Assembly: GCA_964016885.1 (NCBI GenBank)
Contig: CAXHJY010001288.1
Span: 62,001 to 126,000, forward strand
DNA length: 64,000 bases
Direction: 5' to 3'
DNA from: Eledone cirrhosa
Taxonomy: Eukaryota
In this document: positions 26,859 to 63,191 of the stretch, piece by piece
Layout: every line of letters starts with the position of its first letter
Numbering within the stretch: the first letter of the stretch is position 1
Translations under genes and position numbers: made by a program
Notes under the pieces: generated by a model
Told to the model about the DNA's origin: nothing
Database searches by the model: none
Seen by the model: only the letters and a program-made list of their open reading frames with translations

Positions 26859-27070
26859 ATTACTAAGGCCAGTTACTACAATGGCACCATAGCAGGTACA
26901 TACGTTTCATTAGCTCTGAGGACCAACTTGTTCAACCTGTGCTGATGAAAATGAACCCGAAAACATTCTGCTGTTCATTTTTATTGGCACAGGTTGAACA
27001 AGTTGGTCCTCCAGACTAATGAAACATATGTACCTGCTTTGGTGCCATTGTAGTAAGTGGTCTTAATAAT
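26859..27070. repeat. Long imperfect inverted repeat (~98-bp arms, 16-nt spacer)
   Basis: ACTACAATGGCACCA...GAGGACCAACTTGTTCAACCTGTGC mirrored by GCACAGGTTGAACAAGTTGGTCCTC...TGGTGCCATTGTAGT. Confidence 0.9.
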
Positions 27071-28555
27071 TGTTTCTACTTTTGGCACAAGGCCAGCAAT
27101 TTTTTTCCAGTGTATTACTGGTACTTTATTTTATCGTGGTCTTAATAATAATATATAGATATGTGTGTGTGGGCACAATCAGTTTTTTGTGGGTGATGGC
27201 AAAATATATGAGTGCTGTATACATATATTTATAATTGTGAAAATAAACAGTGCCAGATTGCATATATATATATATATAGTTCAAGGAGACAACAAACAGA
27301 AGTACATACACACATACACACATATATAATAAAATAGAGATAAATTCAAATAAGATCTTCTCACTGATTGTCCCATTCTCTGTTTCTCCCACCACACTTT
27401 CTCTCTCACTCTTTATTATTTAGTAGTATTTTGCAAAGATGTTAATCTATAAGCTATATTTCCATTATTCCATTCCTTATGGCCATTTTAAGAAAAAGTT
27501 TCCTGGTAGATTTGCCATAAAACAGTTCCTTAATCTTGACTATGTCACATTTAGTTTGTATTAAATTTCAATAGTGTTGTTTATGTGTTTACTTTTATAC
27601 CTGTTTTGGTTTTGGTTGAGTTAGTTAGTTTCTTTCACAAGGCTCTCTTCTCATATGTTCTTGATATTCTGGTTATTTTAAAAATAAACCTTAGCAGTCT
27701 TTATTCTAAAATTGGAACAAGGCAGAAAAGATTAGGGAAGCCACTGCACAAAGATGGCACACAAGTTCCCTGAAACATTCCATATTTTCTCCCCAGGTCA
27801 ACTTTACTTATCATCCTTCTGAGGTCATTATCATCATCATCATCATCATCATTATCATCATTGTTTAACATCTATTTGTCCATGCTTGCATGGATTAGAC
27901 AGGTTGTCACATTATGAGACAATTCATGTTAGATGACCACGTCTTGTTTATAGGTTAATAAAATAAAGTACTAACTGGTCTAGTATTGGTGTTGATGATT
28001 TTAACTGTATATACTATTGAACGAGGTGCCACATGATAGTCAATTTGACTGAAATCAGCAAAAGAATCATAGAAGAAATTGCTGAGGAATATCAGAAAGT
28101 TTTATTTGCTAATATATAATTAATCATCCTAACTGTGAGAAGGTGATGTCATATGGGATGACAAATGTCAACTTTATCTAACCTTCTGAAATGGCACCAT
28201 GTTTCTCCCTTGCTGTCTACTGCCTGTTCGTGGATAAGATCTCTTTTACTAAGGGCAGATGGGAATTTTAACAAACAGCCCTCAACTCTCTTCATACCTG
28301 TGATGTTTTTAGTACAGGCATCAACAAGTAGGAGCCAATGACTCTCTACATATCATTGAAGGGGACAGCAGACTTTATCACCAGATGGAGTGATAATGAT
28401 GATGTTGATGATAGTTTCACTTCATATAATTGTGAATAGAGTTTTGTTTTTAAGTATTTTTGAATATTGCTATATCTATATTTCTTTATTTGATTATAAT
28501 CTCAGCAATAGTTAAGAAATTTGTCTGACATAAATATAATCTAAGTGACAGCACT

Positions 28556-31500
28556 TATAGTTACGACTGTTTTAAGACTGCCTGTTACTGTTCTAATCTA
28601 TAGTTACGACTGTTTTAAGACTGTCTGTTACTGTTCTAATCTATAGTTACGACTGTTTTAAGACTGTCTGTTACTGTTCTAATCTATAGTTACGACTGTT
28701 TTAAGACTGCCTGTTACTGTTCTAATCTATAGTTACGACTGTTTTAAGACTGTCTGTTACTGTTCTAATCTATAGTTACGACTGTTTTAAGACTGCCTGT
28801 TACTGTTCTAATCTATAGTTACGACTGTTTTAAGACTGCCTGTTACTGTTCTAATCTATAGTTACGACTGTTTTAAGACTGCCTGTTACTGTTCTAATCT
28901 ATAGTTACGACTGTTTTAAGACTGCCTGTTACTGTTCTAATCTATAGTTACGACTGTTTTAAGACTGCCTGTTACTGTTCTAATCTATAGTTATGACTGT
29001 TTTAAGACTGCCTGTTACTGTTCTAATCTATACTTACGACTGTTTTAAGACTGCCTGTTACTGTTCTAATCTATAGTTACGACTGTTTTAAGACTGCCTG
29101 TTACTGTTCTAATCTATAGTTATGACTGTTTTAAGACTGTCTGTTACTGTTCTAATCTATAGTTACGACTGTTTTAAGACTGCCTGTTACTGTTCTAATC
29201 TATAGTTACGACTGTTTTAAGACTGTCTGTTACTGTTCTAATCTATAGTTACGACTGTTTTAAGACTGCCTGTTACTGTTCTAATCTATAGTTACGACTG
29301 TTTTAAGACTGTCTGTTACTGTTCTAATCTATAGTTACGACTGTTTTAAGACTGCCTGTTACTGTTCTAATCTATAGTTACGACTGTTTTAAGACTGCCT
29401 GTTACTGTTCTAATCTATAGTTACGACTGTTTTAAGACTGCCTGTTACTGTTCTAATCTATAGTTACGACTGTTTTAAGACTGCCTGTTACTGTTCTAAT
29501 CTATAGTTATGACTGTTTTAAGACTGCCTGTTACTGTTCTAATCTATAGTTACGACTGTTTTAAGACTGCCTGTTACTGTTCTAATCTATAGTTATGACT
29601 GTTTTAAGACTGCCTGTTACTGTTCTAATCTATAGTTACGACTGTTTTAAGACTGCCTGTTACTGTTCTAATCTATAGTTACGACTGTTTTAAGACTGCC
29701 TGTTACTGTTCTAATCTATAGTTACGACTGTTTTAAGACTGTCTGTTACTGTTCTAATCTATAGTTACGACTGTTTTAAGACTGCCTGTTACTGTTCTAA
29801 TCTATAGTTACGACTGTTTTAAGACTGCCTGTTACTGTTCTAATCTATAGTTACGACTGTTTTAAGACTGCCTGTTACTGTTCTAATCTATAGTTATGAC
29901 TGTTTTAAGACTGTCTGTTACTGTTCTAATCTATAGTTACGACTGTTTTAAGACTGTCTGTTACTGTTCTAATCTATAGTTACGACTGTTTTAAGACTGT
30001 CTGTTACTGTTCTAATCTATAGTTACGACTGTTTTAAGACTGTCTGTTACTGTTCTAATCTATAGTTACGACTGTTTTAAGACTGCCTGTTACTGTTCTA
30101 ATCTATAGTTACGACTGTTTTAAGACTGCCTGTTACTGTTCTAATCTATAGTTACGACTGTTTTAAGACTGTCTGTTACTGTTCTAATCTATAGTTACGA
30201 CTGTTTTAAGACTGTCTGTTACTGTTCTAATCTATAGTTATGACTGTTTTAAGACTGTCTGTTACTGTTCTAATCTATAGTTACGACTGTTTTAAGACTG
30301 CCTGTTACTGTTCTAATCTATAGTTACGACTGTTTTAAGACTGCCTGTTACTGTTCTAATCTATAGTTACGACTGTTTTAAGACTGCCTGTTACTGTTCT
30401 AATCTATAGTTACGACTGTTTTAAGACTGCCTGTTACTGTTCTAATCTATAGTTACGACTGTTTTAAGACTGTCTGTTACTGTTCTAATCTATAGTTACG
30501 ACTGTTTTAAGACTGCCTGTTACTGTTCTAATCTATAGTTACGACTGTTTTAAGACTGCCTGTTACTGTTCTAATCTATAGTTACGACTGTTTTAAGACT
30601 GCCTGTTACTGTTCTAATCTATAGTTACGACTGTTTTAAGACTGTCTGTTACTGTTCTAATCTATAGTTACGACTGTTTTAAGACTGCCTGTTACTGTTC
30701 TAATCTATAGTTACGACTGTTTTAAGACTGCCTGTTACTGTTCTAATCTATAGTTACGACTGTTTTAAGACTGCCTGTTACTGTTCTAATCTATAGTTAC
30801 GACTGTTTTAAGACTGCCTGTTACTGTTCTAATCTATAGTTACGACTGTTTTAAGACTGCCTGTTACTGTTCTAATCTATAGTTACGACTGTTTTAAGAC
30901 TGCCTGTTACTGTTCTAATCTATAGTTACGACTGTTTTAAGACTGCCTGTTACTGTTCTAATCTATAGTTACGACTGTTTTAAGACTGCCTGTTACTGTT
31001 CTAATCTATAGTTACGACTGTTTTAAGACTGTCTGTTACTGTTCTAATCTATAGTTACGACTGTTTTAAGACTGCCTGTTACTGTTCTAATCTATAGTTA
31101 CGACTGTTTTAAGACTGCCTGTTACTGTTCTAATCTATAGTTACGACTGTTTTAAGACTGCCTGTTACTGTTCTAATCTATAGTTACGACTGTTTTAAGA
31201 CTGCCTGTTACTGTTCTAATCTATAGTTACGACTGTTTTAAGACTGCCTGTTACTGTTTACGACTGTTTTAAGACTGCCTGTTACTGTTCTAATCTATAG
31301 TTACGACTGTTTTAAGACTGCCTGTTACTGTTCTAATCTATAGTTACGACTGTTTTAAGACTGCCTGTTACTGTTCTAATCTATAGTTACGACTGTTTTA
31401 AGACTGCTGTTACTGTTCTAATCTATAGTTACGACTGTTTTAAGACTGCCTGTTACTGTTCTAATCTATAGTTACGACTGTTTTAAGACTGTCTGTTACT

Positions 31501-34500
31501 GTTCTAATCTATAGTTACGACTGTTTTAAGACTGTCTGTTACTGTTCTAATCTATAGTTACGACTGTTTTAAGACTGTCTGTTACTGTTCTAATCTATAG
31601 TTACGACTGTTTTAAGACTGCCTGTTACTGTTCTAATCTATAGTTACGACTGTTTTAAGACTGCCTGTTACTGTTCTAATCTATAGTTATGACTGTTTTA
31701 AGACTGTCTGTTACTGTTCTAATCTATAGTTACGACTGTTTTAAGACTGTCTGTTACTGTTCTAATCTATAGTTACGACTGTTTTAAGACTGCCTGTTAC
31801 TGTTCTAATCTATAGTTACGACTGTTTTAAGACTGTCTGTTACTGTTCTAATCTATAGTTACGACTGTTTTAAGACTGCCTGTTACTGTTCTAATCTATA
31901 GTTACGACTGTTTTAAGACTGCCTGTTACTGTTCTAATCTATAGTTACGACTGTTTTAAGACTGTCTGTTACTGTTCTAATCTATAGTTACGACTGTTTT
32001 AAGACTGTCTGTTACTGTTCTAATCTATAGTTATGACTGTTTTAAGACTGTCTGTTACTGTTCTAATCTATAGTTACGACTGTTTTAAGACTGCCTGTTA
32101 CTGTTCTAATCTATAGTTACGACTGTTTTAAGACTGCCTGTTACTGTTCTAATCTATAGTTACGACTGTTTAAGACTGTCTGTTACTGTTCTAATCTATA
32201 GTTATGACTGTTTTAAGACTGTCTGTTACTGTTCTAATCTATAGTTACGACTGTTTTAAGACTGCCTGTTACTGTTCTAATCTATAGTTACGACTGTTTT
32301 AAGACTGTCTGTTACTGTTCTAATCTATAGTTACGACTGTTTTAAGACTGCCTGTTACTGTTCTAATCTATAGTTACGACTGTTTTAAGACTGCCTGTTA
32401 CTGTTCTAATCTATAGTTACGACTGTTTTAAGACTGTCTGTTACTGTTCTAATCTATAGTTACGACTGTTTTAAGACTGTCTGTTACTGTTCTAATCTAT
32501 AGTTACGACTGTTTTAAGACTGCCTGTTACTGTTCTAATCTATAGTTACGACTGTTTTAAGACTGTCTGTTACTGTTCTAATCTATAGTTATGACTGTTT
32601 TAAGACTGTCTGTTACTGTTCTAATCTATAGTTACGACTGTTTTAAGACTGTCTGTTACTGTTCTAATCTATAGTTACGACTGTTTTAAGACTGCCTGTT
32701 ACTGTTCTAATCTATAGTTACGACTGTTTTAAGACTGTCTGTTACTGTTCTAATCTATACGTTACGACTGTTTTAAGACTGCCTGTTACTGTTCTAATCT
32801 ATAGTTACGACTGTTTTAAGACTGTCTGTTACTGTTCTAATCTATAGTTACGACTGTTTTAAGACTGTCTGTTACTGTTCTAATCTATAGTTACGACTGT
32901 TTTAAGACTGTCTGTTACTGTTCTAATCTATAGTTACGACTGTTTTAAGACTGCCTGTTACTGTTCTAATCTATAGTTACGACTGTTTTAAGACTGCCTG
33001 TTACTGTTCTAATCTATAGTTACGACTGTTTTAAGACTGTCTGTTACTGTTCTAATCTATAGTTACGACTGTTTTAAGACTGCCTGTTACTGTTCTAATC
33101 TATAGTTACGACTGTTTTAAGACTGTCTGTTACTGTTCTAATCTATAGTTACGACTGTTTTAAGACTGTCTGTTACTGTTCTAATCTATAGTTACGACTG
33201 TTTTAAGACTGCCTGTTACTGTTCTAATCTATAGTTACGACTGTTTTAAGACTGCCTGTTACTGTTCTAATCTATAGTTACGACTGTTTTAAGACTGTCT
33301 GTTACTGTTCTAATCTATAGTTACGACTGTTTTAAGACTGCCTGTTACTGTTCTAATCTATAGTTACGACTGTTTTAAGACTGCCTGTTACTGTTCTAAT
33401 CTATACTTACGACTGTTTTAAGACTGCCTGTTACTGTTCTAATCTATAGTTACGACTGTTTTAAGACTGCCTGTTACTGTTCTAATCTATAGTTACGACT
33501 GTTTTAAGACTGTCTGTTACTGTTCTAATCTATAGTTACGACTGTTTTAAGACTGCCTGTTACTGTTCTAATCTATAGTTACGACTGTTTTAAGACTGCC
33601 TGTTACTGTTCTAATCTATAGTTACGACTGTTTTAAGACTGCCTGTTACTGTTCTAATCTATAGTTACGACTGTTTTAAGACTGTCTGTTACTGTTCTAA
33701 TCTATACTTACGACTGTTTTAAGACTGCCTGTTACTGTTCTAATCTATAGTTACGACTGTTTTAAGACTGCCTGTTACTGTTCTAATCTATAGTTACGAC
33801 TGTTTTAAGACTGTCTGTTACTGTTCTAATCTATAGTTACGACTGTTTTAAGACTGCCTGTTACTGTTCTAATCTATAGTTACGACTGTTTTAAGACTGC
33901 CTTTTACTGTTCTAATCTATAGTTACGACTGTTTTAAGACTGCCTGTTACTGTTCTAATCTATAGTTACGACTGTTTTAAGACTGTCTGTTACTGTTCTA
34001 ATCTATAGTTACGACTGTTTTAAGACTGCCTGTTACTGTTCTAATCTATAGTTACGACTGTTTTAAGACTGCCTGTTACTGTTCTAATCTATAGTTACGA
34101 CTGTTTTAAGACTGCCTGTTACTGTTCTAATCTATAGTTACGACTGTTTTAAGACTGTCTGTTACTGTTCTAATCTATAGTTACGACTGTTTTAAGACTG
34201 CCTGTTACTGTTCTAATCTATAGTTACGACTGTTTTAAGACTGCCTGTTACTGTTCTAATCTATAGTTACGACTGTTTTAAGACTGTCTGTTACTGTTCT
34301 AATCTATAGTTACGACTGTTTTAAGACTGTCCTGTTACTGTTCTAATCTATAGTTACGACTGTTTTAAGACTGCCTGTTACTGTTCTAATCTATAGTTAC
34401 GACTGTTTTAAGACTGTCTGTTACTGTTCTAATCTATAGTTACGACTGTTTTAAGACTGTCTGTTACTGTTCTAATCTATAGTTACGACTGTTTTAAGAC

Positions 34501-36769
34501 TGTCTGTTACTGTTCTAATCTATAGTTACGACTGTTTTAAGACTGTCTGTTACTGTTCTAATCTATAGTTACGACTGTTTTAAGACTGCCTGTTACTGTT
34601 CTAATCTATAGTTACGACTGTTTTAAGACTGTCCTGTTACTGTTCTAATCTATAGTTACGACTGTTTTAAGACTGTCTGTTACTGTTCTAATCTATAGTT
34701 ACGACTGTTTTAAGACTGTCTGTTACTGTTCTAATCTATAGTTACGACTGTTTTAAGACTGCCTGTTACTGTTCTAATCTATAGTTATGACTGTTTTAAG
34801 ACTGTCTGTTACTGTTCTAATCTATAGTTACGACTGTTTTAAGACTGTCTGTTACTGTTCTAATCTATAGTTACGACTGTTTTAAGACTGCCTGTTACTG
34901 TTCTAATCTATAGTTACGACTGTTTTAAGACTGCTCTGTTACTGTTCTAATCTATAGTTACGACTGTTTTAAGACTGTCTGTTACTGTTCTAATCTATAG
35001 TTACGACTGTTTTAAGACTGTCTGTTACTGTTCTAATCTATAGTTACGACTGTTTTAAGACTGTCTGTTACTGTTCTAATCTATAGTTACGACTGTTTTA
35101 AGACTGTCTGTTACTGTTCTAATCTATAGTTACGACTGTTTTAAGACTGTCTGTTACTGTTCTAATCTATAGTTACGACTGTTTTAAGACTGCCTGTTAC
35201 TGTTCTAATCTATAGTTACGACTGTTTTAAGACTGTCTGTTACTGTTCTAATCTATAGTTACGACTGTTTTAAGACTGCCTGTTACTGTTCTAATCTATA
35301 GTTACGACTGTTTTAAGACTGTCTGTTACTGTTCTAATCTATAGTTACGACTGTTTTAAGACTGTCTGTTACTGTTCTAATCTATAGTTACGACTGTTTT
35401 AAGACTGTCTGTTACTGTTCTAATCTATAGTTACGACTGTTTTAAGACTGCCTGTTACTGTTCTAATCTATAGTTATGACTGTTTTAAGACTGTCTGTTA
35501 CTGTTCTAATCTATAGTTACGACTGTTTTAAGACTGTCTGTTACTGTTCTAATCTATAGTTACGACTGTTTTAAGACTGTCTGTTACTGTTCTAATCTAT
35601 AGTTACGACTGTTTTAAGACTGCCTGTTACTGTTCTAATCTATAGTTACGACTGTTTTAAGACTGTCCTGTTACTGTTCTAATCTATAGTTACGACTGTT
35701 TTAAGACTGTCTGTTACTGTTCTAATCTATAGTTACGACTGTTTTAAGACTGTCTGTTACTGTTCTAATCTATAGTTACGACTGTTTTAAGACTGTCTGT
35801 TACTGTTCTAATCTATAGTTACGACTGTTTTAAGACTGTCTGTTACTGTTCTAATCTATAGTTACGACTGTTTTAAGACTGTCTGTTACTGTTCTAATCT
35901 ATAGTTACGACTGTTTTAAGACTGCCTGTTACTGTTCTAATCTATAGTTACGACTGTTTTAAGACTGTCTGTTACTGTTCTAATCTATAGTTACGACTGT
36001 TTTAAGACTGTCTGTTACTGTTCTAATCTATAGTTACGACTGTTTTAAGACTGTCTGTTACTGTTCTAATCTATAGTTACGACTGTTTTAAGACTGCCTG
36101 TTACTGTTCTAATCTATAGTTACGACTGTTTTAAGACTGTCTGTTACTGTTCTAATCTATAGTTACGACTGTTTTAAGACTGTCTGTTACTGTTCTAATC
36201 TATAGTTACGACTGTTTTAAGACTGTCTGTTACTGTTCTAATCTATAGTTACGACTGTTTTAAGACTGCCTGTTACTGTTCTAATCTATAGTTACGACTG
36301 TTTTAAGACTGCCTGTTACTGTTCTAATCTATAGTTACGACTGTTTAAGACTGCCTGTTACTGTTCTAATCTATAGTTACGACTGTTTTTAAGACTGTCT
36401 GTTACTGTTCTAATCTATAGTTACGACTGTTTTAAGACTGCTGTTACTGTTCTAATCTATAGTTACGACTGTTTTAAGACTGCCTGTTACTGTTCTAAAT
36501 CTATAGTTATGACTGTTTTAAGACTGCCTGTTACTGTTCTAATCTATAGTTACGACTGTTAAGACTGCCTGTTACTGTTCTAATCTATAGTTATGACTGT
36601 TTTAAGACTGCCTGTTACTGTTCTAATCTATAGTTACGACTGTTTTAAGACTGCCTGTTACTGTTCTAATCTATAGTTATGACTGTTTTAAGACTGCCTG
36701 TTACTGTTCTAATCTATAGTTATGACTGTTTTAAGACTGCCTGTTACTGTTCTAATCTATAGTTACGAC
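28556..36769. repeat. 8.2-kb 43-bp satellite array (TATAGTTACGACTGTTTTAAGACTG[C/T]CTGTTACTGTTCTAATC), about 190 copies
   Basis: Period 43 measured between TTACGAC at 28561 and 28604. Extremely homogeneous. Confidence 0.99.
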
Positions 36770-37926
36770 ATTGTGCTAACATTTTCATAAAATGTTCAGT
36801 CTCTCAACTTAAGAATATAAGAATATTAAATATTATTTCTAATGTAAAGAGTTGCAGAGTTGGTTTAGCTGATAGAATATTAGAGTACTTGTTGGGAGGT
36901 AATTTTGTCACATGTCTATTATCAACCCATTTAACACTTGCTGCTGCAGTCTACTTAGATATTGTACCACATGAAACCACATTGACTGACAAGACAATCT
37001 TGGAAAAGTATAAAACACCATTACAGCTGTTTCATATTAAAAATTTACTCTAATACTGCACATTCTTATAATGATCTGCCACAGTACAGATAATATAAAC
37101 ATTTTAATTAAGAAACCCAGTTTTTAGATATTTTCTGATAAGTTTTTACATGATATTAAGAGTTAAATAGTTAACACCAGGACTATGCAGCTTACAACTC
37201 GATTGTCTAGTACTTTTCATTAGCTGCAGTGTTGAGCAAACATTTTTCTTTAAGGTCTGTATAATGTAACTGAAACAGTACTTCAATTTAGACTTGAAAA
37301 CCCTGTAGGATTTTCATTGACAGGAGTTTACCAAGAACTTGTGTATCTTTTTGATATTTTTATCTTATCACATATGCCTCGAACATTCTTTCTGCAAAAT
37401 ATTGTTTTGAATCTTCATGTAAGATTCCTGACACTCTTGAAGTATTGTCATCAGTCTTTCATTATTTCTTCTGTAATTTATCACTCTCACTATTAATCAC
37501 ATTCTACCATTATATTGGCTAGTATTCACAACCTTAAATCCTCTTACCATCTTTGATTTTTTACGCCTTCTACCTTGTCAGTCTCCAAGGCAAAGATGTG
37601 CTTTAATATTCACAAGCCGTTGCTAGCAGGGAAAACAGATGTTAAATGATGATGATGATGCCTCTCTGGCTTTCATTAAAAAAAGAATCATTATTAGTGC
37701 AATGAGCATCAGACAAAATATCTTGTGGTATTAATTTCATCTGTTAATGTTTTAAGTTAAAATTCTGTCAAGGTTAGTATTGTCTTTCATTCTTCCAAGG
37801 ACAATAAAATAAAGTGCCAGTCAAGTTCTGTGGTCATATATAATCAACTGTTCTCTCCTCCCTCAAATTTCTGGCCTTCACCCATCTTAGAAATAATTAA
37901 ATTATTATTATTATTATCATTATTAT

Positions 37927-38065
37927 TGTTCTTTGAGTCTCAGTCATTGATGTTATTTAACTGGAAAGTTTGTTGAAATGAATATCAAGCCGCTACCTGT
38001 AGCCTCAGATATTCAGGACGTATCGGAGGGTTCTTGCTGTTCCCAGCAAGCATGCCTTTTGAAGT
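37927..38065 (-). mobile_element. Extreme 3' stub of an R4/Dong-like (RLE-type) non-LTR retrotransposon in a (TAA)n tract
   Basis: The minus strand encodes LQKACLLGTARTLRYVLNI*, followed by a short 3'UTR, with (TAA)n on both sides. Dong elements are known to target (TAA)n. Confidence 0.7.
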
Positions 38066-38082
38066 GTTATTATTATTATTAT

Positions 38083-39201: not shown

Positions 39202-39257
<56 letters not shown>

Positions 39258-40057: not shown

Positions 40058-40149
40058 CATATATGTGTGTGAATTCAAAATTGGGTGCACACAGGATGAA
40101 AACAATGGAAAGATGGACAATCCCATCTCCCCAGTTATATGTATGTATA

Positions 40150-40211
<62 letters not shown>

Positions 40212-40455: not shown

Positions 40456-40500
<45 letters not shown>

Positions 40501-40586
40501 CTATGTATATATCTGTGTATATATATATGTATATCTGTGTATATATATATGTATATCTATATGTATATACATGAATATGTATATAC

Positions 40587-40622
<36 letters not shown>

Positions 40623-41233: not shown

Positions 41234-41278
<45 letters not shown>

Positions 41279-41514: not shown

Positions 41515-42900
41515 AGGGCAGTGGGTCAGCAGACTTATTAGAGCATCTGATGAAATTGCTTTTCAGTATATTGTTATGACCAGTAATTCTAGTTTCAAAT
41601 CCCACCAAGGTCAGCTTTGCCTCTCGTTCTAGGGTCGATAAAATAAAGTACTGGCTGGGGATTGGTAGTTAATATAACCGGCTTTCTCATCCCCTGAAAA
41701 AACTGTTGGCCTTGTGACAAAATTAGAAACCATTAAGAGCAGTGGATTGTCATTGGAGTCATTAGACCATGAGATAGAATTCTTTGCACTATTTCTTCTG
41801 GCTGCCTGGTAACTGAGTTCAAATCTCCATTAAGGTCTACTTTGCTTTTCATCCTTACAGGGTCAATAAAATAAGGCACTGGGGTTGATTTAATCGTCTT
41901 TCCCCTCTCCCCCAAAATTATTGGCCTTGTGACTAAATCAGAAACCATTCTTGGGCAGGTGGATTGGCAGCATTAGTAGGGCTTTGGACAACATACTTTG
42001 TGGCATTGTGTTATGGCTACATTGTGTCCAAATCCTGCCGAGAATAGCTTTGCCTTTCATCCTTACAGGGGTCGATAAAATAAAGTACCAGTTATGCACT
42101 GGGGTTAATTTAATCGACTTTCCCCTCCTCCCAAAATTATTGGTCCTGTGCCTAAATTAGAAACCATTATTATTTTTTTTTTATGGTTGTGGATTGGCAG
42201 AGTGTCAAACAAAATACCTTGTGGTATTTATTCCAGCTCTTTAAGTTCTGAATTCAAATGCTGCTGAGGTTAACCTTGCCTTTTATTCTCCAAGGGTTGA
42301 TAGAATAAAGTACCAGTAATGCACTGGGGTCAATTTAATGAACTTTCCCCTCTCCCAAAATTGTTGGTCTAATGCCTAAATTAGAAACCATTATTATTAT
42401 TGATATTTTGTAAGGGCCATGGATTGGTAGAATTGTTAGATCATAGGAGAAAATGCCTTCTGGTATTTGTCCCAGCTCTTTATGTACCAAGTTCTAATCC
42501 AGCTGAGCTCAACTTTGCCTTTCATCCTTCCAGCGATGATAAAATAAAGTATAAGTTAAGTACTGGAGTTGATGTAATTGATTTTCCCTTCCCTGCAAAT
42601 TGTTGGCCTTGTGCCTAAATTAGAAACCATTATTAACATTGTGTAAGAAATGGTTGTCTTTGTTAAGAAAAGTGGCAAAGTCGGTAGATGAGAAAAAGAA
42701 CAAAGCGGTAGATATGATTTCGGGTGGTATTTATTTCTGCCATTTTATATTCTTAGTTCAAATTCGACTCGAGTCAACTTTGCCATCTGTCAAGAGTCGA
42801 TAAAACCAAGTAGTAGACCTGTACTTGAGTAGGTTTCATCAGCTACACTCCTCCTCCTCTTTGCAAATTCCTGGCCTTGTGTCAATAGAAGAAATCGTTA
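41515..42900 (+). mobile_element. Cluster of about 6 diverged head-to-tail MetaSINE-like copies
   Basis: Repeated GTGGATTGGCAG A-box, GTTCAAAT B-box, CTTTGCCTTTCATCC...GATAAAATAAAGTACC and TTAGAAACCATT end, at ~210-240-bp spacing. Confidence 0.85.
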
Positions 42901-43832: not shown

Positions 43833-43897
<65 letters not shown>

Positions 43898-44044
43898 AGG
43901 ATACTATTTATGGTTATGTATATTTTAAACTTTTTATAGTTATGTATATTAAACCTTAAACAGTGAAGGTCAGTAATTTATTACTACCTTATTACCAGTA
44001 AGATAAATAGCTCAATGTAATAACATCAGTTGTTCTACAGAGGT

Positions 44045-44411
44045 TATATAGAATTCACAAGAATCAAAGCTATGTTCAAAGCATTTATTCACTTACAATT
44101 GTTTCATCCAAACCTAGGCTTGGAGTCTTCGGAGCATTTTTCAATGTTTGTACATATAATTGACCTCCTTTCCAACGCAAGAGACATACAGATACATATA
44201 TATATATATTGATGTACAGTGGAGTGACATATATACTGTACATCAATATATATATATATATGTATCTGTATGTCTCTTGCGTTGGAAAGGAGGTCAATTA
44301 TATGTACAAACATTGAAAAATGCTCCGAAGACTCTAAGCCTAGGTTTGGATGAAACAATTGTAAGTGAATAAATGCTTTGAACATAGCTTTGATTCTTGT
44401 GAATTCTATAT
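44045..44411. repeat. Near-perfect fold-back palindrome (~175-bp arms, 14-nt spacer) bounded by TA repeats
   Basis: 44045-44220 is the reverse complement of 44235-44411. By eye the only differences are one substitution and TA count. Confidence 0.97.
44321..44367 (+). ncRNA. Putative minimal type-I hammerhead ribozyme motif (variant core CCGAAGA); mirrored on the other arm
   Basis: TGCT-CCGAAGA-c-TCTAAG[CCTAGG]TTTGGA-t-GAAA-CAATTG-TA-AGTG. Palindromic helix III (ACAATTGT), GUA cleavage triplet, weak helix I. Confidence 0.5.
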
Positions 44412-44594
44412 ATATATATATGTGTATGTATGTAAATGTGGTTGGCTCTAGGAAAGTCATCCAACCGTAGGAACCAGCCAGAAACAGTCCTATATGAGCA
44501 AAACATGACTCTAAATGGGACAAACCCTTCTAACCCATGCTAGCATGGGAGATGGACGTTAAACGATGATGATGATGATATATATATACGCATA

Positions 44595-44691
44595 CAGGGT
44601 GTCCCAAAAAATGTATACACTCTTATTACCTGTGCAGGAAAAATTTATTAGAACGCTGTTGAAGTCTGTATACATTTTTTGGGACACCCTG
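44595..44691. mobile_element. 97-bp Tc1/mariner-type MITE
   Basis: TIR CAGGGTGTCCCAAAAAATGTATACA / TGTATACATTTTTTGGGACACCCTG, preceded by TA. Confidence 0.8.
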
Positions 44692-44715
44692 AACATATAT
44701 ATATATATATATATA

Positions 44716-44905
44716 ACGAAGGAAATGTGGTAAGGAACCAGGTGGACCATAACGCACCAAAGTACTCAATACTTAGGGTAGTAGAGTGGGTAATAGGAAC
44801 AAGTAAGACCCCGACGGCTGAGCTCAAGCCGTTTCGACGGATTATTCAGTCCAGAATTAGCCGTCGAAACGGCTGGAGCTCAGCCGTCGGGGTCTTACTT
44901 GTTCC

Positions 44906-44908
<3 letters not shown>
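44716..44908. mobile_element. Short TA-embedded element with a terminal hairpin; related copy at 52460-52621
   Basis: Shared leader ACGAAGGAAATGTGGT...GTACTCAATACT...GTAGAGTGGGTAATAGGAAC, then an inverted repeat over ~44793-44908. Confidence 0.7.
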
Positions 44909-51020: not shown

Positions 51021-51051
51021 ATATATATATATATATTATATATATATTATA

Positions 51052-51367: not shown

Positions 51368-54150
<2,783 letters not shown>

Positions 54151-54407
54151 TGTTACCATCTTGAAGTAAGTGAGTATATTTACTTATATATTAATTGTTC
54201 TGTATATATGTAGAAACTACTGGTAGTTTCTCAATTGATATATATCGTTTAAACTTGTTATATAGAAACGGAATGACTGTGAATTAACACTTGGAATATA
54301 TCATGTTATCTCGCTTTCTTTCCATTTCTTTATTCATTTATATATATATTTTTTTGTAAATAAGTAAAATTTTTCCTATAAGTATGTGTGTAAGAAGAAT
54401 AGGCTGT

Positions 54408-54670
54408 AGTGTGCAGGAGAGCAGATTACGTTAGTACGGCCACGTGATGCGCATGGATGATGACCGCTGGGTGAAGAAGTGCCAGGTGATCCCAGTGGAA
54501 GGAAGACGCAAACCACAGAAGACCTGAACGGAAGTGGTGAGAGCTGACTTCAGATCGTTGAAGGCTACGGAGGAGATGATGAACGATCGTGACAAGTGGA
54601 GAGATGCTGAAGAGTACCCGTCCCACTGTTACAAGCAGGGAAACGCGGACGGACGTAAAATGATGATGAT
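54408..54670 (+). mobile_element. 3' stub of another RTE subfamily
   Basis: Reads VQESRLR*YGHVMRMDDDRWVKKC and ends GGACGTAAAATGATGATG. Confidence 0.7.
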
Positions 54671-55860
54671 ATAGCTTAGTGTGCGTGTGTTTAGAGATTT
54701 ACTTTTTTCTATTCGACGAGGTAAGTATTTATATATAATTGTCACCATGAGGAATGTCTAGAGAAGGTTTAGTTTCTTAGGAGATGTATGGAGCTAGACA
54801 AAGTAAGTATGTATATACAAATGTCACAATTAGGATAGATTGCCTTGCAGTATTCGTTTCAGCTCTCTGAGTTCAAATCATACCAATGCCAACTTTTCCT
54901 TTCATGCATTGAAGGTCGATGAAAATGTACCTGTTTAGTACTGGGGTGGATTCTTCCTCTCACTCTTTATACTTTATCTAGAAGAAATCTGCTGCATTCG
55001 GATCTGGGCTATGCCAGGTATTAAAACACGTATTCCAATACAGAGTTATTACAGCTTCGAGGCTCTGCATGCATAGTTCGCAGCCAATACACTAAAGCGT
55101 TCTTTAATAATACCTTATTTCACGTTACTCCAGTACACTTAGCTGAGGAGTTAATCCTGCAATAGACTAGCATCCTATCCTGGTAGAGGATAGGATGCCA
55201 GTGATGTGCTGAGAATATACTATGAGTTAATATTATATATATACTAAACTTATCTTTAATCAATACATCTTGAAGCTGAAGCGTATAGACAGTATGCCCC
55301 ACCCCTCCTGCTGTAAAGTGGTCGTGTAGGTGTCACAACAAAAAAGCACTCAGTCTACTCTGTAAAGTGGTCGTGTAGGCACCACGGTAAAAAGCACCCA
55401 GTACTCATTGTAAATGAGGTTGATGTTAGGAAGGGCATCCATCTAGAAATCAAGCCAAAATCATTTCTGTGAGAGCAAGACATGGTCATCTGACCTGGCA
55501 CTGCCCACAACAAGACAACCCGTCTAACCCATGCTAACGTGGAAGAATGGACGTAAAATGGTGATGATGATATATATATACGGGAATTTTACCCGCCCTA
55601 TATATATATATCTAGGGTGGGTAAAATTCCCGATATATATATTGTTAAAAAAAACTGGAGGTTATATCCAAAGTTGGCAGAGTACTCACTCCAAAGTACG
55701 AGTTTGGTATAGAGTTAGTTACACTATATATATATGTGTGTGTATATGTATACATGTATATGTATATATGTTTATATATATATATATATATGTATACATG
55801 TATATGTATATATGTGTGTATATATATATGGTGGTGAATTAGTTTTGCGAGGTTTTTTAT

Positions 55861-57761
55861 ATGAAATCGTGTGTCGACCACAAGACAGTCGACGACCCGA
55901 CAACAGGACCACCAACAAGACCCGTATGCGGAGCTAATATAGCTAGCAACTACAGGATCTCCTACTTCCTCTCAATGGTTATACGCCCCATAATCAAGAT
56001 GTCCCCAGATGTATGTGACAGTACAGAGGACCTCCTCAGCAGAATCAGTGAGTGCAACAAAAACAGGAGCCTATCCAACTGCATAATAGGCAGCATGGAT
56101 GTGGTGTCACTGTACCCATCCATTAACATTGATTTTGCTGTGAAAAGATGTGTGGAGATGATCATTGAGAGTGAGGTGGAGTTCTGCGACGTCGACACAG
56201 ACGAATTGGGCCTCCTACTTAGACTTACCTACGACACTGACTACCTAGACAGCCATGACCTTAGACGTTTCTGCCCTAGTAGACCTATAAGAGGTAGACC
56301 CCCCCCACCATAACCTCAATGGCAAAAAAGACTCCCATGGGAAGGTGGATTGGGTGGACCAAAGCTATACGGACCCCCCAAAACAATGATCAGGTAAGAA
56401 AAATGGTTGCACATGCAATAGGGGCTAGTATCAAAACTACCCTAAAGGGCCACATATTTAAGTTCAACGAGAAGATCTACACCCAAAATGAGGGAGCAGC
56501 CATCGGCGTCAGCATAGCTGGTGATGTTGCCAACCTTTTCATGATATGGTGGGAAAGGAGACTTAAAGATCTCCTTAATGAGAGCTCCATAGACCTCATC
56601 ATGTACTCTCGTTATGTAGACGATATCAATATAGTTATAAGAACACCCCCACTAGAGAGCACTAACAAGTTTGATTTAGAACGTAGCACGATGGAAAGCA
56701 TCCAGCAGATAGTTACAGTTATACTCTGGTGTATGGAATTAGCTATCGACTTCCCTTCCAAACACCCTAACAATAGACTACCTGTATTAGACACAGAACT
56801 CTGGATTAACACTATAGACGAGAGAGCCCAAATTCTCCACTCACACTATGCTAAACCTATGGCCTCCAAATACCTGATACTCAAAAACTCAGCAATGTCC
56901 AGTAGTGCTAAGTTTAATATTCTGATCGCAGATTTGGTACGAGTGATGAAGAATGTGTCCCGCATGTGCGACCCAACAGAAATGGAAAGACACATCCAAC
57001 ACTTCATCAACCGCATGCAGTTCTCTGGCTACAACCAAAGAGACAGAGTCAGAGTATACGAAGGAGCCATGGAAAAGTATAAGACCCTCATAGAACTGGA
57101 CATGAAAGGAATTTGCCCATTATACAGGAGCAAATCATGGAATAGCTTAGATAGGGCTAGACATAAGATAGGGAAAGCCACCTCATGGTACGACAACCAG
57201 AGATACCAGAGTGTCATGTTTGTGGACGCCACCCCTGGAGGGAAATTAGCTAACCAGTGTAGAAAGGCCCTGAGAAAGACCCACTTAAAAATAAATGTGG
57301 TAGAAAAGCCAGGAACCACCATAAAATCCCTGATCAGCAAAACCTGCCCTTTTAAGAAAACCCACTGTACCAATAGGAAATGTATCATATGTAAGGTGAA
57401 CCCCCGGATAAACTGTAAAACTAGAAACGTAGTCTATAGCATAAGATGTACAGAGGGTACTTGCAGAAACATGACAACAACATACATAGGTGAGACAGCT
57501 CGTAGCATAGGTGAAAGGATAGACCAACACTGGGGGGAACTAAAAGGACGAAAAAACGGGTCAGTACTATACGAACATGCTAGACAACAACATGACGGTA
57601 ACATAGAAATTAGAATAATATCTAAACATAGAAATGACCCAGCAGATAGGCAAATCAGAGAGGCTGGTGAAATAGAAATTAGAAGACCAAGGCTAAACAG
57701 AAAGAATGAATGGAATAACAACAACGCCCAAACAAACAACACTGACCTAAGAGAAGTATAA
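55861..57761 (+). pseudogene. Penelope RT-GIY-YIG polyprotein, split by one frameshift in the C8 run at 56299-56306
   Basis: TRPVCGA, SMDVVSLYPSI, QNEGAAIG and YSRYVDDI (PLE RT); LPVLD; CTNRKCIIC linker; VVYSIRC...TYIGETARSIGERIDQH (GIY-YIG). Confidence 0.93.
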
Positions 57762-57974
57762 ATAAGTAAATAAAATGAAATAAATAAATAAATACATACA
57801 CAAGCACATAAACACACACTAGTCACACAGCAAACAGAACACTATACACACACGCAAACGCATGCGCAAAAAAGACAAAATAAAATAAACAAACAAGCAA
57901 ATAAATAAATAAATATCTTGACAGACTGAATAAAAATGGCGTAGACATACAATACAACAGGAGGAAGATATAAC

Positions 57975-58016
57975 ACCACTGACGATGTTGCAGATGTGCA
58001 ACGAAAGATTTATGAT
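57975..58016 (+). ncRNA. Minimal hammerhead ribozyme motif in the Penelope pLTR (copy 2)
   Basis: ACCA-CTGACGA-t-GTTGCA[GATG]TGCAAC-GAAA-GATT-TA-TGAT. PLE pLTRs are known to carry minimal hammerheads. Confidence 0.65.
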
Positions 58017-58223
58017 AAACTATATATATGTGTTTGTGTCTATATTGTATCTGTATTATTTTTGACCGTCGGTCAGTCAATGGCAACATTGAGGACCGAG
58101 TAAGTTAGATTACCGATATAAAAGACACAGAAGCGAGAAGCGAAAACCAACCAAACAGTGAGTGTGTTCTGTTATTTATTCTGGCAATATTACACAAATA
58201 TGACCCTCCCCAAGTATAACAAT

Positions 58224-58432
58224 ATATATATATGTATACATGTATATATATATATGTGTATATATATATGTATATATATATGTATGTATATGTATATATG
58301 TATATGTATGTATATGTATATGTATGTATATGTATATATGTATTTATATGTATATATATATATGTATATATATGTATGTATATGTATATATATATATGTA
58401 TGTATATGTATATATATATATGTATGTATATG

Positions 58433-58491
<59 letters not shown>

Positions 58492-58874
58492 GTGTATATG
58501 TATATATATGTATATATATGTATGTATATGTATATATATATGTATGTATATATATATGTATGTATATGTATATATATGTATATGTATATATATGTATATG
58601 TATATATATATGTATATGTATATATATATGTATATATATATGTATATGTATATATATATGTATATATATATATATGTATGTATATGTGTATGTATATGTA
58701 TATATATATATATGTATGTATATATATATGTATGTATATATATATGTATGTATGTATATGTATATATATATATGTATGTATATATATATATGTATGTATG
58801 TATATGTATATATATATATGTATGTATATATATATGTATGTATATATGTATGTATGTATATATATGTATGTATG

Positions 58875-58910
<36 letters not shown>

Positions 58911-59203
58911 TATATGTGTATATATATATGTATGTGTATATATATGTATGTATATATATATATGTATATATATATGTATGTGTATATATATGTATATATA
59001 TGTGTGTATATGTATGTATGTGTATATATATATATGTATGTATATATGTATGTATGTATGTATGTATATATATATATATGTATGTATATATATATATATG
59101 TATGTATATATATATATATGTATGTATGTATATATATATATATGTATGTATGTATATATATATATGTATGTATGTATGTATGTATATATATATGTATGTA
59201 TAT

Positions 59204-59242
<39 letters not shown>
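58224..59242. repeat. (TA)n/(TATG)n compound microsatellite
   Basis: Directly visible. Confidence 0.97.
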
Positions 59243-59245
<3 letters not shown>

Positions 59246-59939
59246 AGTATATAGAGAAGAAAACACAAAGGGGTATGTTTTTAATTACGAGGGATGGGGA
59301 AACACCAGAGTGAACAACAAAGTCTACGAAAGGAGTGGAAAATACATATTAATTAAAAGAGTAAATCAAAATGTACAGACCAACCTTTTATAACTATAAA
59401 CACCTGGGCAAACTCTAATAAGAGAATGTTTCGTCATAAAAAGTGTCGATACCACACCGCTCAGGGCTTATCAACAGGTGTAAAGACAGTATGGTCGAGC
59501 CTTCTAAAGAAACTTCAGACAGCTGAAATATTGCACATGGTGAGAGAAGATACGAAAACATGCGCGCTAGACAGTACATAGTGGCTTTGATTTATATACA
59601 TGTAGCATTCGTCCATTGGAAGTATATTTTGACTGTAGTTTGGTGACCGCTACAGAAAACTGAGATCAATGTACAGAGAAATATTGAGTAATGAATCTGT
59701 TTAGTATAGTTCTAGCAATAAAAGAGGCGATTTAGGCTGACTGCCTTTTGTATGCTTGCTGACCTATTTCGTACAAGATCTAGATTAGTAATTCCAGACA
59801 TGGAAGCCAAATGTTGAATCGAGGGGCTTTATAGTAAACTTAGCAAACTAATGTAATTCACTGTACCCTAAGTAAACTATGAGCACATAATATGTGGTGG
59901 GATAACAAGTAAGATAGCATTAAAAATTAAGTTGGTAAG

Positions 59940-60570
59940 TGGCAAATGTACAGAGAGTGTTAATAGCAAGAAGAAACGAGAACTAGACGCCCTTCAATGT
60001 TTCCTGTAAAAAGTTGATCGCCTTTGTTACCTAGGAGACCTCGATAACAGTGGAAGAAAGTGCGCTAAAAGCATAGTATCCAGACTAAAAACGGGTTGTA
60101 AATATTTCAAGCAGCTATGGCGTCTATTAGTAACGAAGGATTTCTTTCTCGGGGTAAAGAGCAAATTTTATGATGTTTATGTACGAAGTGCGATGCTGCG
60201 GGGCATAATTTTATAGTTTATAAATGAGAAGATTTGCGAACACTAGAAAGAAATGAAGTGATGCTGCTCCGCTGGATTTGTGAAGTTAATGTGCACGAAC
60301 AATTGAGCACAAATAAACTTAGAGAAAAGCTAGATATGAGAGGAGTCAGATTTAGTGTCTAAGAGAGAAGATTGCGCTGGTATGGGCATGTGATGTGTAT
60401 CTATGAAGGTTGTAATTGTATAAAGAAATGATGAGTGTTCGAAGTAGATGCAACCTGTGAAAAAAAGATACAGAGGAAGACATGTGGTTAAGGGCGATTT
60501 TAAGAAGCTGAACATCATGATGACATTCAATCCATGTTAACATGGAAACAAGTGTGATGATCACTAACAA
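59940..60570 (+). mobile_element. Old degenerate RTE LINE 3' fragment related to the 7.8-kb and 48-kb family
   Basis: Remnants of CYLGD, LVTKDF..GVKSKFYDV, LERNEVMLLRWIC and RLRWYGHV across broken frames. Confidence 0.75.
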
Positions 60571-60851
60571 CGAAGATATGGTATCTATAAATCTCTTAGA
60601 GATATTAGTAGCGTTAATATAATTGTTACATGTAATAACCTTAGCTCGCACGAAGCTGAAGTTTACAATTCTCTAAATCTACGATATATGAGTTTCTTTA
60701 GACTTGAGACAAACATCTCCATAAGATTTTCTACATAAGTTAGATGAAATGGCTTAAGTGGGAATAGATAATTGGCTTACTAAGTGTTTACTCGTAGTCT
60801 ACTCAACAGTACCTGTTATCTTTTCTAATAGTCTCTCCCTCTCTTTCTCTC

Positions 60852-60905
<54 letters not shown>

Positions 60906-61005
60906 TTATATATATATATATGTAAAAGGTAAACAGAAATAATACAATCAATACAGTATATGGAAGGAATATATTAGGTTAACGCTTGAAATAGCAAGAA
61001 GAAGG

Positions 61006-61041
61006 TCTTAACGTTTCGGACACTAGTCCTTCATCTGAAGA
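61006..61041 (-). ncRNA. Putative minimal hammerhead motif (variant core CAGAUGA)
   Basis: Minus strand: TCTT-CAGATGA-a-GGAC[TAGT]GTCC-GAAA-CG-TT-AAGA. Helix I TCTT/AAGA; palindromic helix III (ACGT). Confidence 0.55.
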
Positions 61042-62404
61042 AAGAATGAGAAATAAGATAGATTGAAGAGACGGGCGGGTTGGAATTGGGAAACATTTTT
61101 AGATAGAAAAGATTTTCCAGTTAGAGGTTGTGAATACTCCGTATTGTGGATAGTTTTAGCGTACGGCGTTGTTTGACTCAAACAATGCTCGCCAATAAAA
61201 TCTGGCAGCTTAAAGATACAAACCAGGAATACGGGATTAGCTGGTCGAAACTGTCAGGGGCAAAGGCCTATAAAATGGAATGTCCCACTGCGGACTTTGC
61301 AATATGGAGTTGCTCCATATTTTAAAATATGACAAAATGCTGCTTAACAGCAAAATAAAACGGTCAATTTTCTGTAGGCATAAAGCAGCTATTAAATTCG
61401 CTAATTTAAAACCAACTTGATTCGACCCAACAATTCCATAATTCAAACTGAACCACCTGAGTCTATTATAATAACCCATTATTATTAACTGTCAATAAAT
61501 CAACTAATCACTGAATCAACATCATAACCTCCTAACTTTTCTTTCTTTCACTCTCTTTCACTAAAGCTATTTCACCTCTTCCATTATATCCTATCGTGTT
61601 CTCTTCACTTCTAACATAACTTCAAATTTAATTTATTAATTTACCCTTTATTTTAGCACTGTACTATTTCTTCATAATATAATTTAACCAATACATATAT
61701 GTATATATTTAGTATTTTCATGTTTATACCATCACATATTTATATTTTAACCACCAACACCACAACTATTTTCAACAATCATATTATGTTCACTTTTCTT
61801 CACACGCATATACATTTTTTTACTTATTTTTTATCATCTTCATTCTAACTTATTTATTATTATTTATTTATTATTTTTTCTTTTTCTTTATCTTTCTTTT
61901 TCTCTTTTCTTTTTTCTTCTTTTTTCTTTTTCTCATTCTCTTTTTCTTTTTTTCTTTTTCTTTCTTTATTACTGATGTTGTGATTTGAATTTTCCTAGTA
62001 TATTACAAACGCCGTGTATAATTTTAATCAGTTTTTCCGATGATTTGATTAAGCACAACTTCAAATGATTAGCAATTTTTAGACAACTTAATCAATGAAA
62101 CAATTGTTAATACTGTAAATAAAACCCTTTTGTACTATTGACCATGTTATTCTTCACTCTTTCAATATATATATATATATATATATATACAAAACGAATA
62201 AAAAAAGGTGAGTGAAGGTAAAGAAAAACGAACGAAACTCAGAACAGTCCCTTCACATCAGTCAACCGCTGGAGGTCCTCGCAGTTTCAGTTTATATATA
62301 TGTATATATAAAGGAACGGGCGAAGGCATCAAGAACTTTATCCTTGTCCGTTCCCTTGTCGTTTTAATTTGGATTGACTCGAGAACGTAACCTTATTATG
62401 TAAG

Positions 62405-62482
62405 AAGCTGTCTGATGAGATCATGGCACTGGTTAGGCAGAATCACGTAGCCACTGTCGTCATTGAAATATGTATCAAGCTT
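62405..62482 (+). ncRNA. Putative hammerhead motif with canonical CUGAUGA core and long helix II
   Basis: AAGCTGT-CTGATGA-...ATGGCA/TGTCGT and TGGTTA/TAGCCA stems...-GAAA-TATGTA-TC-AAGCTT. Confidence 0.5.
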
Positions 62483-62582
62483 ATGTATAAACCTTAACAT
62501 CTGAAACTACTTTGCATTTTCTTATCACCCCTCTCTCTCTCTCTATATATATATATACTTTATATATATATATATATATACT

Positions 62583-63191
62583 TAACAATCAAAGAGTGTT
62601 TAATAACATTTAATTACTAACGATCGTTTCATCCAAGCACAAGGCCGGAATCATCGGAGTATAAATCAAAAGTTAGAACACAGATAACTTTGTCAAAGAA
62701 CATTCCTGGGATACAGCATATGGGAAGAAAGCAAACATAACAGATATTAACATTGATATAAGAGAGGAAAGCAAGAAGCTCATAAAAGCATGATCATATA
62801 AATATAATTAACAATAATCAGCAGCTAGAGGCATTAAAAAAACTTAAAAACAAGCTGGTATAAAGAAAAGAAAAAAGCTACTAAAAGGAATTTAAGCATA
62901 ATGTAGGCATATCATATACTGACAAATTTACATACAACATAGGCATCATAACAGTCTATAAAAGCTAGTGCATGGATATAAACTTAAATATAAACTTAAA
63001 TTTAAGAATGTAAAAATACATCTTCAAGGTACATTTTTACTATATTCATGGAAAATGGAGTTGAACTTTTTATTATGAATATAGTAAAAATGTACCTTGA
63101 AGATGTGCTTCTTGCTTATATCAATGTTAATATTGTGCTTGGATGAAACGATCGTTAGTAATTAAATGTTATTAAACACTCTTTGATTGTT
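62583..63191. repeat. Nested fold-back element: ~60-bp terminal inverted repeats plus an inner ~33-bp inverted repeat
   Basis: TAACAATCAAAGAGTG...TTTCATCCAAGCACAA mirrored at ~63133-63191. ACATCTTCAAGGTACATTTTTACTATATTCAT mirrored at ~63074-63105. Confidence 0.9.
62615..62661 (-). ncRNA. Putative minimal hammerhead motif (variant core CCGAUGA)
   Basis: Minus strand: TACT-CCGATGA-t-TCC...GGA-t-GAAA-CGATCG-TT-AGTA. Perfect 4-bp helix I; palindromic helix III (ACGATCGT). Confidence 0.6.

What the first reader, a model, noticed from the sequence alone, without database searches (positions are those of the whole stretch)
26859..63191. Unrelated fold-back palindromes all carry hammerhead-like motifs: a possible class of non-autonomous ribozyme fold-back elements in (TA)n
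Seen: four sequence-unrelated inverted-repeat elements (26859-27070, 44045-44411, 44716-44908 with its relative 52460-52621, and 62583-63191) each sit in or beside TA tracts. Each has a GAAAC-(self-complementary helix III)-GUH motif in its arms, and three also have an upstream CUGANGA-like box and matching helix I. Known: Penelope-like elements carry minimal type-I hammerheads in their pLTRs and often make inverted 5' ends. Inference: these ORF-less palindromes are head-to-head PLE termini from several families. They are either abortive insertion products or an independently propagating fold-back retrozyme-like class. Either strand would be transcribed into long dsRNA containing a ribozyme motif.
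Basis: partly seen in the sequence, partly recalled or inferred. Interest (0 to 1): 0.75.

Follow-up and report, generated by a model that had tools for sequence, protein, structure and literature searches.

The report
Head-to-head Penelope insertion footprints
These hairpin-shaped repeats are the paired ends of four ordinary Penelope-type jumping genes, likely written afresh at each insertion when both ends of a cut TA repeat are copied from the element's RNA, so they are probably not a self-spreading ribozyme class, though the shortest ones likely mark where that RNA begins.

Summary
The four palindromes and their hammerhead-like motifs are real (10 motifs against 0.39 expected), but they are not ORF-less entities of their own. 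Each arm is the 3' end (pLTR, with or without tail) of a high-copy Penelope-like retrotransposon; longer copies run into RT/GIY-YIG frames with Hydra-clade motifs, and family C has intact 784-aa copies in 3531-bp tandems. Junctions differ per locus (B 10 of 10, A 16 of 16); in C, 63 of 69 palindromes have one tailed and one short end and both arms share subfamily variants (56 of 62). This fits two cDNAs primed on both sides of a cut, not a propagating unit. C palindromes hold only half a hammerhead; B and D are related. Of 233 short C arms, 232 stop within 12 bases, at a TATA/initiator-like site: likely the RNA 5' end (no RNA data). One C junction recurs and is unexplained. Inverted copies, tails and opposite-strand hammerhead pairs are published; the scan noted the same layout and stop elsewhere in this genome.

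The parts
26789..27071 (.). Element A: head-to-head pair of 3' ends of an old Penelope-like family; tail 26789-26858 on the left arm
   Evidence: family 3' region follows a CxC-linker/GIY-YIG-like frame in L200
26990..27036 (+). Hammerhead-like motif, right arm of A: helix I 4 bp, core UUGAACAA, helix II, GAAAC-AUAU-GUA
   Evidence: three-way fold of helices I and II (z -0.51, not beyond shuffles)
26893..26939 (-). Hammerhead-like motif, left arm of A
43884..44412 (.). Element B: left arm 43884-44234 (sense on minus, 189 nt plus 164-nt tail), right arm 44235-44412 (175 nt, short end)
   Evidence: near full-length relative L110 with RT and GIY-YIG pieces
44320..44368 (+). Hammerhead-like motif, right arm of B, core CCGAAGA (mirror copy about 44089-44137 on minus)
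44716..44908 (.). Element C: tail 44716-44792, left arm 44793-44847, right arm 44848-44908 starting at the inferred RNA start; 3' half of a hammerhead only; modal junction
52460..52621 (.). Second C copy (subfamily of the intact elements): both arms reach the inferred RNA start with one central base (52559); left arm has an internal deletion
62577..63310 (.). Element D: left arm 62577-63049 (sense on minus, short end), patchwork junction 63049-63132, right arm 63133-63198 with tail to 63310
   Evidence: family continues into CxC-linker frame in L114
62615..62661 (-). Hammerhead-like motif, left arm of D, core CCGAUGA; the right arm is cut inside helix II and lacks the box

Best explanation
The four palindromes are head-to-head 3' ends of four (TA)n-targeting Penelope-like retrotransposon families with Hydra-type proteins, likely made anew at each insertion rather than copied as units. 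Shown: each arm is the end of a longer element that leads into an RT/GIY-YIG frame; insertions sit in TA repeats; nearly every two-armed copy has one arm ending at an inner point and the other at the end of the tail; both arms carry the same subfamily variants; junctions vary. Inferred: the endonuclease cuts both strands of a TA repeat, each 3' end primes a cDNA on the element's RNA, one at the inner and one at the outer internal start site (as shown in vitro for a lizard element), and the two cDNAs are joined where they end. Inferred for C (and probably A): most priming uses the pLTR/tail copy near the RNA's 5' end, so the cDNAs run off a capped 5' end after about 60 and 140 nt, which gives the very short palindromes; priming at the downstream copy of a tandem transcript gives the long ones. 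The hammerhead is a passenger of the pLTR; no arm starts at its cleavage site.
For: ORF linkage: B (L110, L112), D (L114-116); C (L177-183, intact 784-aa frame in 3531-bp tandem); A (L200); RWR/DKT/CxCx5C motifs. Ends: C 63 of 69 tailed+short; A 16 of 16 distinct two-armed loci tailed on one side (by eye); B 9 of 10; D 3 of 4. Junctions: B 10 of 10 and D 4 of 4 differ, A 16 of 16 differ. Arm concordance 56 of 62 against 27% expected. Same layout around kb-long copies. 11 of 16 short tailed arms of the youngest C subfamily are identical over 132 nt to a long copy. Sharp stop: 232 of 233 short C arms at -3..+8, 75 long, none between; contig word depth rises over tenfold at that place and collapses after the tail (one study, summed depth, a hint only). 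Two subfamilies have T where their short copies have C, one base before the stop, so the arms begin at A+1. TATA-like word 29 nt upstream and initiator-like context (consensus recalled). Literature: PMC8557442, PMC4209133, PMC11167929, PMC3846280.
Against: No RNA run was available, so the start site and cap are inferred. The boundary also reads as a 3' splice acceptor. One subfamily has a weaker TATA-like word. The cap-G signal is thin: 18 G against 1 A before +1, but 6 G are templated by the partner arm and 6 were picked by my anchor, leaving 6 G against 0 A. One C junction is 39 of 89 in the anchor sample (inflated by the anchor; about 4 of some 27 incidental copies, by eye) and is not explained by microhomology with two of the masters. 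B and D show no sharp stop (samples were picked for long arms). One 5-kb palindrome (L180) is tailed on both arms. Long copies of two minor C haplotypes were few or unseen. No tree against named PLE references was built.
Confidence: 0.8

Rival explanations
1. An independently propagating, non-autonomous fold-back class: short palindromes are transcribed and re-inserted by the PLE protein, most plausibly the modal C junction.
For: Modal C junction 39 of 89, in five or more haplotypes, with the tail on either arm; about ten copies carry junction-type read-through bases (by eye); the junction restores an initiator-like word; short arms far outnumber long ones.
Against: Haplotypes are those of ORF-bearing subfamilies, so the junction arose anew in each; the anchor selects for it; short copies lack the upstream TATA-like word and half the ribozyme; A, B, D junctions do not recur; youngest short arms match intact elements exactly.
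Confidence: 0.08
2. Self-priming: one cDNA (or an antisense template, as proposed in PMC3846280) folds back on itself and the second arm is copied from the first.
For: Explains arm concordance and small templated duplications at some junctions; proposed in print for rotifer PLEs.
Against: Does not readily give arms of unequal 3' reach with the tail on either side of the same junction, nor left arms longer than the arm they would be copied from.
Confidence: 0.08
3. DNA-transposon MITEs with terminal inverted repeats.
For: TA flanks, inverted arms, high copy number; two MITE-like palindromes do lie in the window.
Against: Arms are collinear with RT/GIY-YIG elements, are asymmetric, and occur solo and in tandem.
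Confidence: 0.02
4. Fold-back assembly chimeras.
For: No short-read contig bridged the centre of A (a hole proves nothing).
Against: Symmetry stops at fixed element ends, flanks differ, the tail is one-sided, arms of A have diverged 14%, and the layout recurs at many loci; contigs cover each arm of A with its own flank.
Confidence: 0.02

Closest known systems
Hydra clade of C-terminal EN+ Penelope-like elements (PMC8557442; section 11 and passages read)
   Same: Single ORF RT then GIY-YIG; DKT; CxCx5C linker; CxxC and CxH near the C-terminus; no CxxC inside the GIY-YIG core; (TA)n targets; hammerhead in the pLTR.
   Different: RWR for RWK; C unit is 3.5 kb and B over 4 kb (Hydra generally under 3 kb); hammerhead cores are variants, not canonical; tails of 70-164 nt against 30-40.
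EN+ PLE insertions with an inverted 5'-truncated copy and one-sided tail (PMC8557442 Fig. 2 legend; PMC3846280 passages; PMC2377424 passages)
   Same: Exactly this layout, including palindromes at head-to-head junctions.
   Different: Here both copies are often so short that no ORF remains, and in C and A they stop at one site.
Minimal PLE hammerheads (PMC4209133; parts 1-2 of 4 read)
   Same: Palindromic helix III, short helix I, long helix II, U3-A8 core variant (C, probably A), and pairs 100-700 bp apart on opposite strands assigned to truncated PLEs.
   Different: The CCGANGA core with a pyrimidine mismatch at the base of helix II (B, D, 62037) was not in the parts read; supplements not seen.
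Poseidon element of Anolis in vitro (PMC11167929; parts 1-2 of 4 read)
   Same: Both strands cut and extended, two internal RT start sites that define the tail, hammerhead cleavage not needed, predicted dimer.
   Different: Different clade; the parts read do not explain inverted copies or run-off products.
Animal non-LTR retrozymes (bioRxiv 10.64898/2026.07.22.740005, part 1 of 5 read; PMC7229834 listing only)
   Same: Type I hammerhead, PLE-derived, no ORF in the short copies.
   Different: Retrozymes are tandem monomers with a whole ribozyme each; these four are single truncated ends of autonomous families, and C has half a ribozyme.

Membership tests
EN+ Penelope-like element | Single ORF with RT and C-terminal GIY-YIG | tested here: met
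   784-aa frame with YRDD and YIG..R in C; pieces in B, D, A. Pfam gave no family for the intact frame and a sub-threshold GIY-YIG for B; 2036 homologs, top hit annotated PF01541.
EN+ Penelope-like element | Tandem/partial tandem copies forming pLTRs | tested here: met
   3531-bp tandems in C; not seen for A, B, D
EN+ Penelope-like element | Inverted 5'-truncated copy and one-sided tail | tested here: met
EN+ Penelope-like element | RT phylogeny within PLEs | not tested
   no named reference proteins were held
Hydra clade | DKT motif and RWK motif | tested here: met
   DKT and RWR (variant) in C and B; these regions not recovered for A and D
Hydra clade | CxCX5C linker; CxxC and CxH flanking the C-terminal E/N | tested here: met
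   C, B, D have CxCx5C; A has a spacing of 7; CxxC and CxH in C
Hydra clade | CCHH absent from EN | tested here: met
   no CxxC between the GIY and YIG parts in C or B (and by eye)
Hydra clade | (TA)n insertion | tested here: met
Hydra clade | Generally under 3 kb | tested here: not met
   C unit 3531 bp; a tendency, not a strict criterion
Type I hammerhead | Complete core and three helices in the window's arms | tested here: inconclusive
   A, B and D-left: variant cores; C, 52460 and D-right lack the 5' box. Long C copies fold as a three-way junction, z 0.34.
Type I hammerhead | Self-cleavage | not testable with these tools
   needs an in vitro assay
Non-LTR retrozyme | Tandem monomers each with a whole hammerhead | tested here: not met
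   single truncated arms
Non-LTR retrozyme | Circular RNA | not testable with these tools
   no RNA holder listed
MITE / DNA transposon | Symmetric TIRs with a fixed interior, linked to a transposase | tested here: not met

The most novel reading that the evidence does not exclude
The modal short palindrome of family C is itself a template: the junction rebuilds an initiator, the copy is transcribed, and the PLE protein re-inserts it, making a minimal fold-back parasite of a Hydra-type element. A less bold and likelier novelty (about 0.55) is that thousands of short palindromes are two cDNAs run off a capped 5' end, mapping the RNA start and both RT start sites from DNA alone.
Probability: 0.08. 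Interest if true: 0.75.

Novelty: new member of a known kind. Interest (0 to 1): 0.42.

Why it matters
How Penelope-like elements make their inverted copies is an open question (PMC8557442 discussion; PMC3846280 proposes self-priming). This genome holds a young family with intact proteins and thousands of short two-armed insertions whose three fixed coordinates (+1, +62, +140) predict the RNA start and both priming sites. That gives an exact in vitro test of two-sided priming against self-priming. It also warns that such palindromes can be mis-annotated as MITEs or microRNA hairpins. As a new class of ribozyme element the finding does not hold.

Tried and rejected
Rfam: only microRNA-hairpin noise over the palindromes in the 150 of 270 rows shown. 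A Fisher test suggested two C subfamilies had no long copies (1 of 47 against 14 of 29, p 1.3e-6), which would have favoured propagation; rejected as an artefact, because their long copies differ at the first base of my anchor. First reading of the linker as Neptune-type was dropped after reading the Hydra definition. Tail-only DNA search found nothing (common words are skipped). No RNA holder listed. Contigs did not bridge the centre of A and showed no usable fold-back joints for C. Pfam and PDB sequence searches of the intact ORF were empty; weak Pfam hits and 39 other than GIY-YIG are treated as chance. Hammerhead monomers do not fold better than shuffles. The permissive arm extension gave false peaks at -8 to -15; the strict count is used. 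A genome-wide count of junction types was not obtained, so junction shares rest on samples. Conservation of motif against flanks within families was not scored; only subfamily differences were read. Paper searches found no paper on run-off palindromes or two-sided priming in PLEs; the library omits most subscription papers, and supplements of PMC8557442 and PMC4209133 (family and hammerhead lists) were not read.
Full report
Observation. The four inverted repeats are at the stated places and the 3' half of a hammerhead, GAAAC, a self-complementary helix III and GTH, is far above chance: 10 in the window against a mean of 0.39 in 100 local resamples, 7 of them in these elements. The 5' box is never canonical: UUGAACAA in A, CCGAAGA in B, CCGAUGA in the left arm of D, and absent from C, from 52460-52621 and from the right arm of D. 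B and D are relatives. Three elements are larger than reported, because one arm carries a tail: A 26789-27071, B 43884-44412, D 62577-63310.

What they belong to. The window lies in a 2.996-Gb animal assembly. Each element is a family: 831, 727, 2190 and 921 first-look candidates for C, A, B and D, and 2747 exact matches of a 27-mer of C. Followed inwards, all four lead into Penelope-type coding sequence. B: L110 has an inverted arm, RT and GIY-YIG pieces, the pLTR and the tail. D: L114-L116. A: L200 has a linker and endonuclease frame just upstream of the shared 3' region. C: frames of 784-819 aa that begin in the pLTR were found in 12 of 14 loci fetched for their long frames, some in 3531-bp tandems. 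C and B have RWR and DKT, C, B and D a CxCx5C linker, and C and B no CxxC inside the endonuclease core, which matches the Hydra clade as defined in PMC8557442 section 11. Pfam and PDB did not recognise the intact frame; it has 2036 homologs of similar length near 40% identity. No tree against named references was built.

Unit or by-product. B: of 29 distinct loci picked by one arm, 10 had an inverted partner within 1.5 kb; all 10 junctions differ and 9 pair a full tail with a short end. D: 4 of 29, all different, 3 of 4 short plus extended. A: 16 distinct two-armed loci, all with different centres and a tail on one side (by eye). C: of 89 loci taken in genome order from the first 100 places listed, 69 have an inverted arm; 63 of the 69 pair a tailed with a short end; both arms carry the same three-site haplotype in 56 of 62 (27% expected). 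The same frame surrounds insertions of kilobases. In the youngest C subfamily 11 of 16 short tailed arms are identical to a long copy over 132 nt. This is what two cDNAs from one kind of RNA, begun at two fixed points on either side of a cut, would leave. PMC11167929 showed both-strand cutting, both-strand extension and two internal start sites bounding the tail for another clade.

The result against. One C junction makes up 39 of the 89 loci, with the tail on either arm and in five or more haplotypes. The share is inflated because my anchor needs the base that this junction supplies; among about 27 incidental copies it is about 4, beside other recurrent junctions (by eye). Two haplotypes seemed to lack long copies (p 1.3e-6), but targeted searches found them: the intact elements are one of these haplotypes, and 28 long arms of the other were found, 10 with the family's endonuclease frame within 1.5 kb. 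Because the haplotypes belong to ORF-bearing subfamilies, the junction must have formed anew in each. Why it is favoured is unexplained: those two subfamilies offer no matching microhomology.

Why so short. Of 308 distinct C arms in all loci held, 75 are long and 233 short; 232 of the 233 end between -3 and +8 and none between -7 and -14 (arms cut downstream of +8 are not counted, and many were anchor-picked). Contig word depth from one study rises more than tenfold at this place and collapses after the tail, with loose ends at all three fixed points (a hint, not a copy number). Two subfamilies have T at position 0 where their anchor-picked short copies have C, so those arms begin at A+1. A+1 lies in an initiator-like context with a TATA-like word 29 nt upstream (consensus recalled), 231 nt before the ATG; PMC3846280 notes a TATA/Inr pair in a rotifer pLTR and PMC2377424 an internal promoter in Penelope. 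Before +1 stand 18 G and 1 A, but only 6 G and 0 A remain after removing partner-templated and anchor-selected cases; an extra G is the known trace of a copied cap in L1-driven insertions (PMC3287187 passages). A behaves alike: 54 of 59 arms stop within -35..+7 of helix I. B and D do not, in samples picked for long arms. The site also reads as a splice acceptor, and no RNA run was listed, so the start site is inferred.

The ribozyme. Long C copies hold a whole type I motif with the U3-A8 core described in PMC4209133 and fold as a three-way junction; subfamilies vary at the free position 7, and one has a C3-A8 mismatch. The inferred start falls in the loop of helix II, so short C copies keep only the 3' half. 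No C arm mapped begins at the cleavage site. A transcript through the palindrome would fold as a long hairpin (-99.9 kcal/mol) that hides the motif.

What is known. The inverted 5'-truncated copy with a one-sided tail (PMC8557442; PMC3846280) and pairs of minimal hammerheads 100-700 bp apart on opposite strands (PMC4209133) are in print. The searches named under Tried and rejected found no paper on run-off palindromes. Earlier notes of this scan on other DNA of this genome reached the two-armed reading and the RNA-start reading; I had written both down before seeing them (and the reading given), and they are not independent support.

Verdict. Real, explained, and a new member of a known kind: insertion footprints of Hydra-type Penelope elements (0.8). 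A propagating fold-back class is unlikely (0.08). The value lies in a young, intact family with three fixed coordinates that make the mechanism of inverted copies testable. Interest 0.42.

Noticed in passing
window 62030-62180 (+): A fifth, solo hammerhead-like end in TA: core CCGAUGA, U-U at the base of a different 9-bp helix II, GAAAC-AAUU-GUU; same variant core as B and D.
   Followed up: partly
window 26603-26743 and 44578-44706: Two related TA-flanked palindromes without the motif, MITE-like.
   Followed up: no
window 55570-55642: Short inverted repeat around a central TA run.
   Followed up: no
window 27686-27789 (+): Diverged U6 snRNA copy above the Rfam gathering score; tRNA-like hit at 20274-20345.
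   Followed up: no
window 1-3663; 22719-26626; 41586-42641: Long tandem and simple-repeat arrays.
   Followed up: no
window 37033 (-) and 19823 (+): Two further GAAAC-palindrome-GTA motifs with no 5' box seen; possibly chance.
   Followed up: partly
L180:443-5400: 5-kb palindrome of family C with the tail on both arms, an exception to the one-tail rule.
   Followed up: partly
G000:C1:437198668-437213196: Five tandem 3531-bp units of family C, four with the full 784-aa frame: a likely active source.
   Followed up: partly
L112:3568-5441; L113:7102-8092; L177:2294-3649: Other Penelope-type frames nested beside or inside these insertions; the L113 one has a CxxC inside its GIY-YIG core, so a different clade.
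   Followed up: no
L309-L338: One C subfamily has a C3-A8 mismatch in the hammerhead core yet many copies, suggesting cleavage is dispensable.
   Followed up: partly
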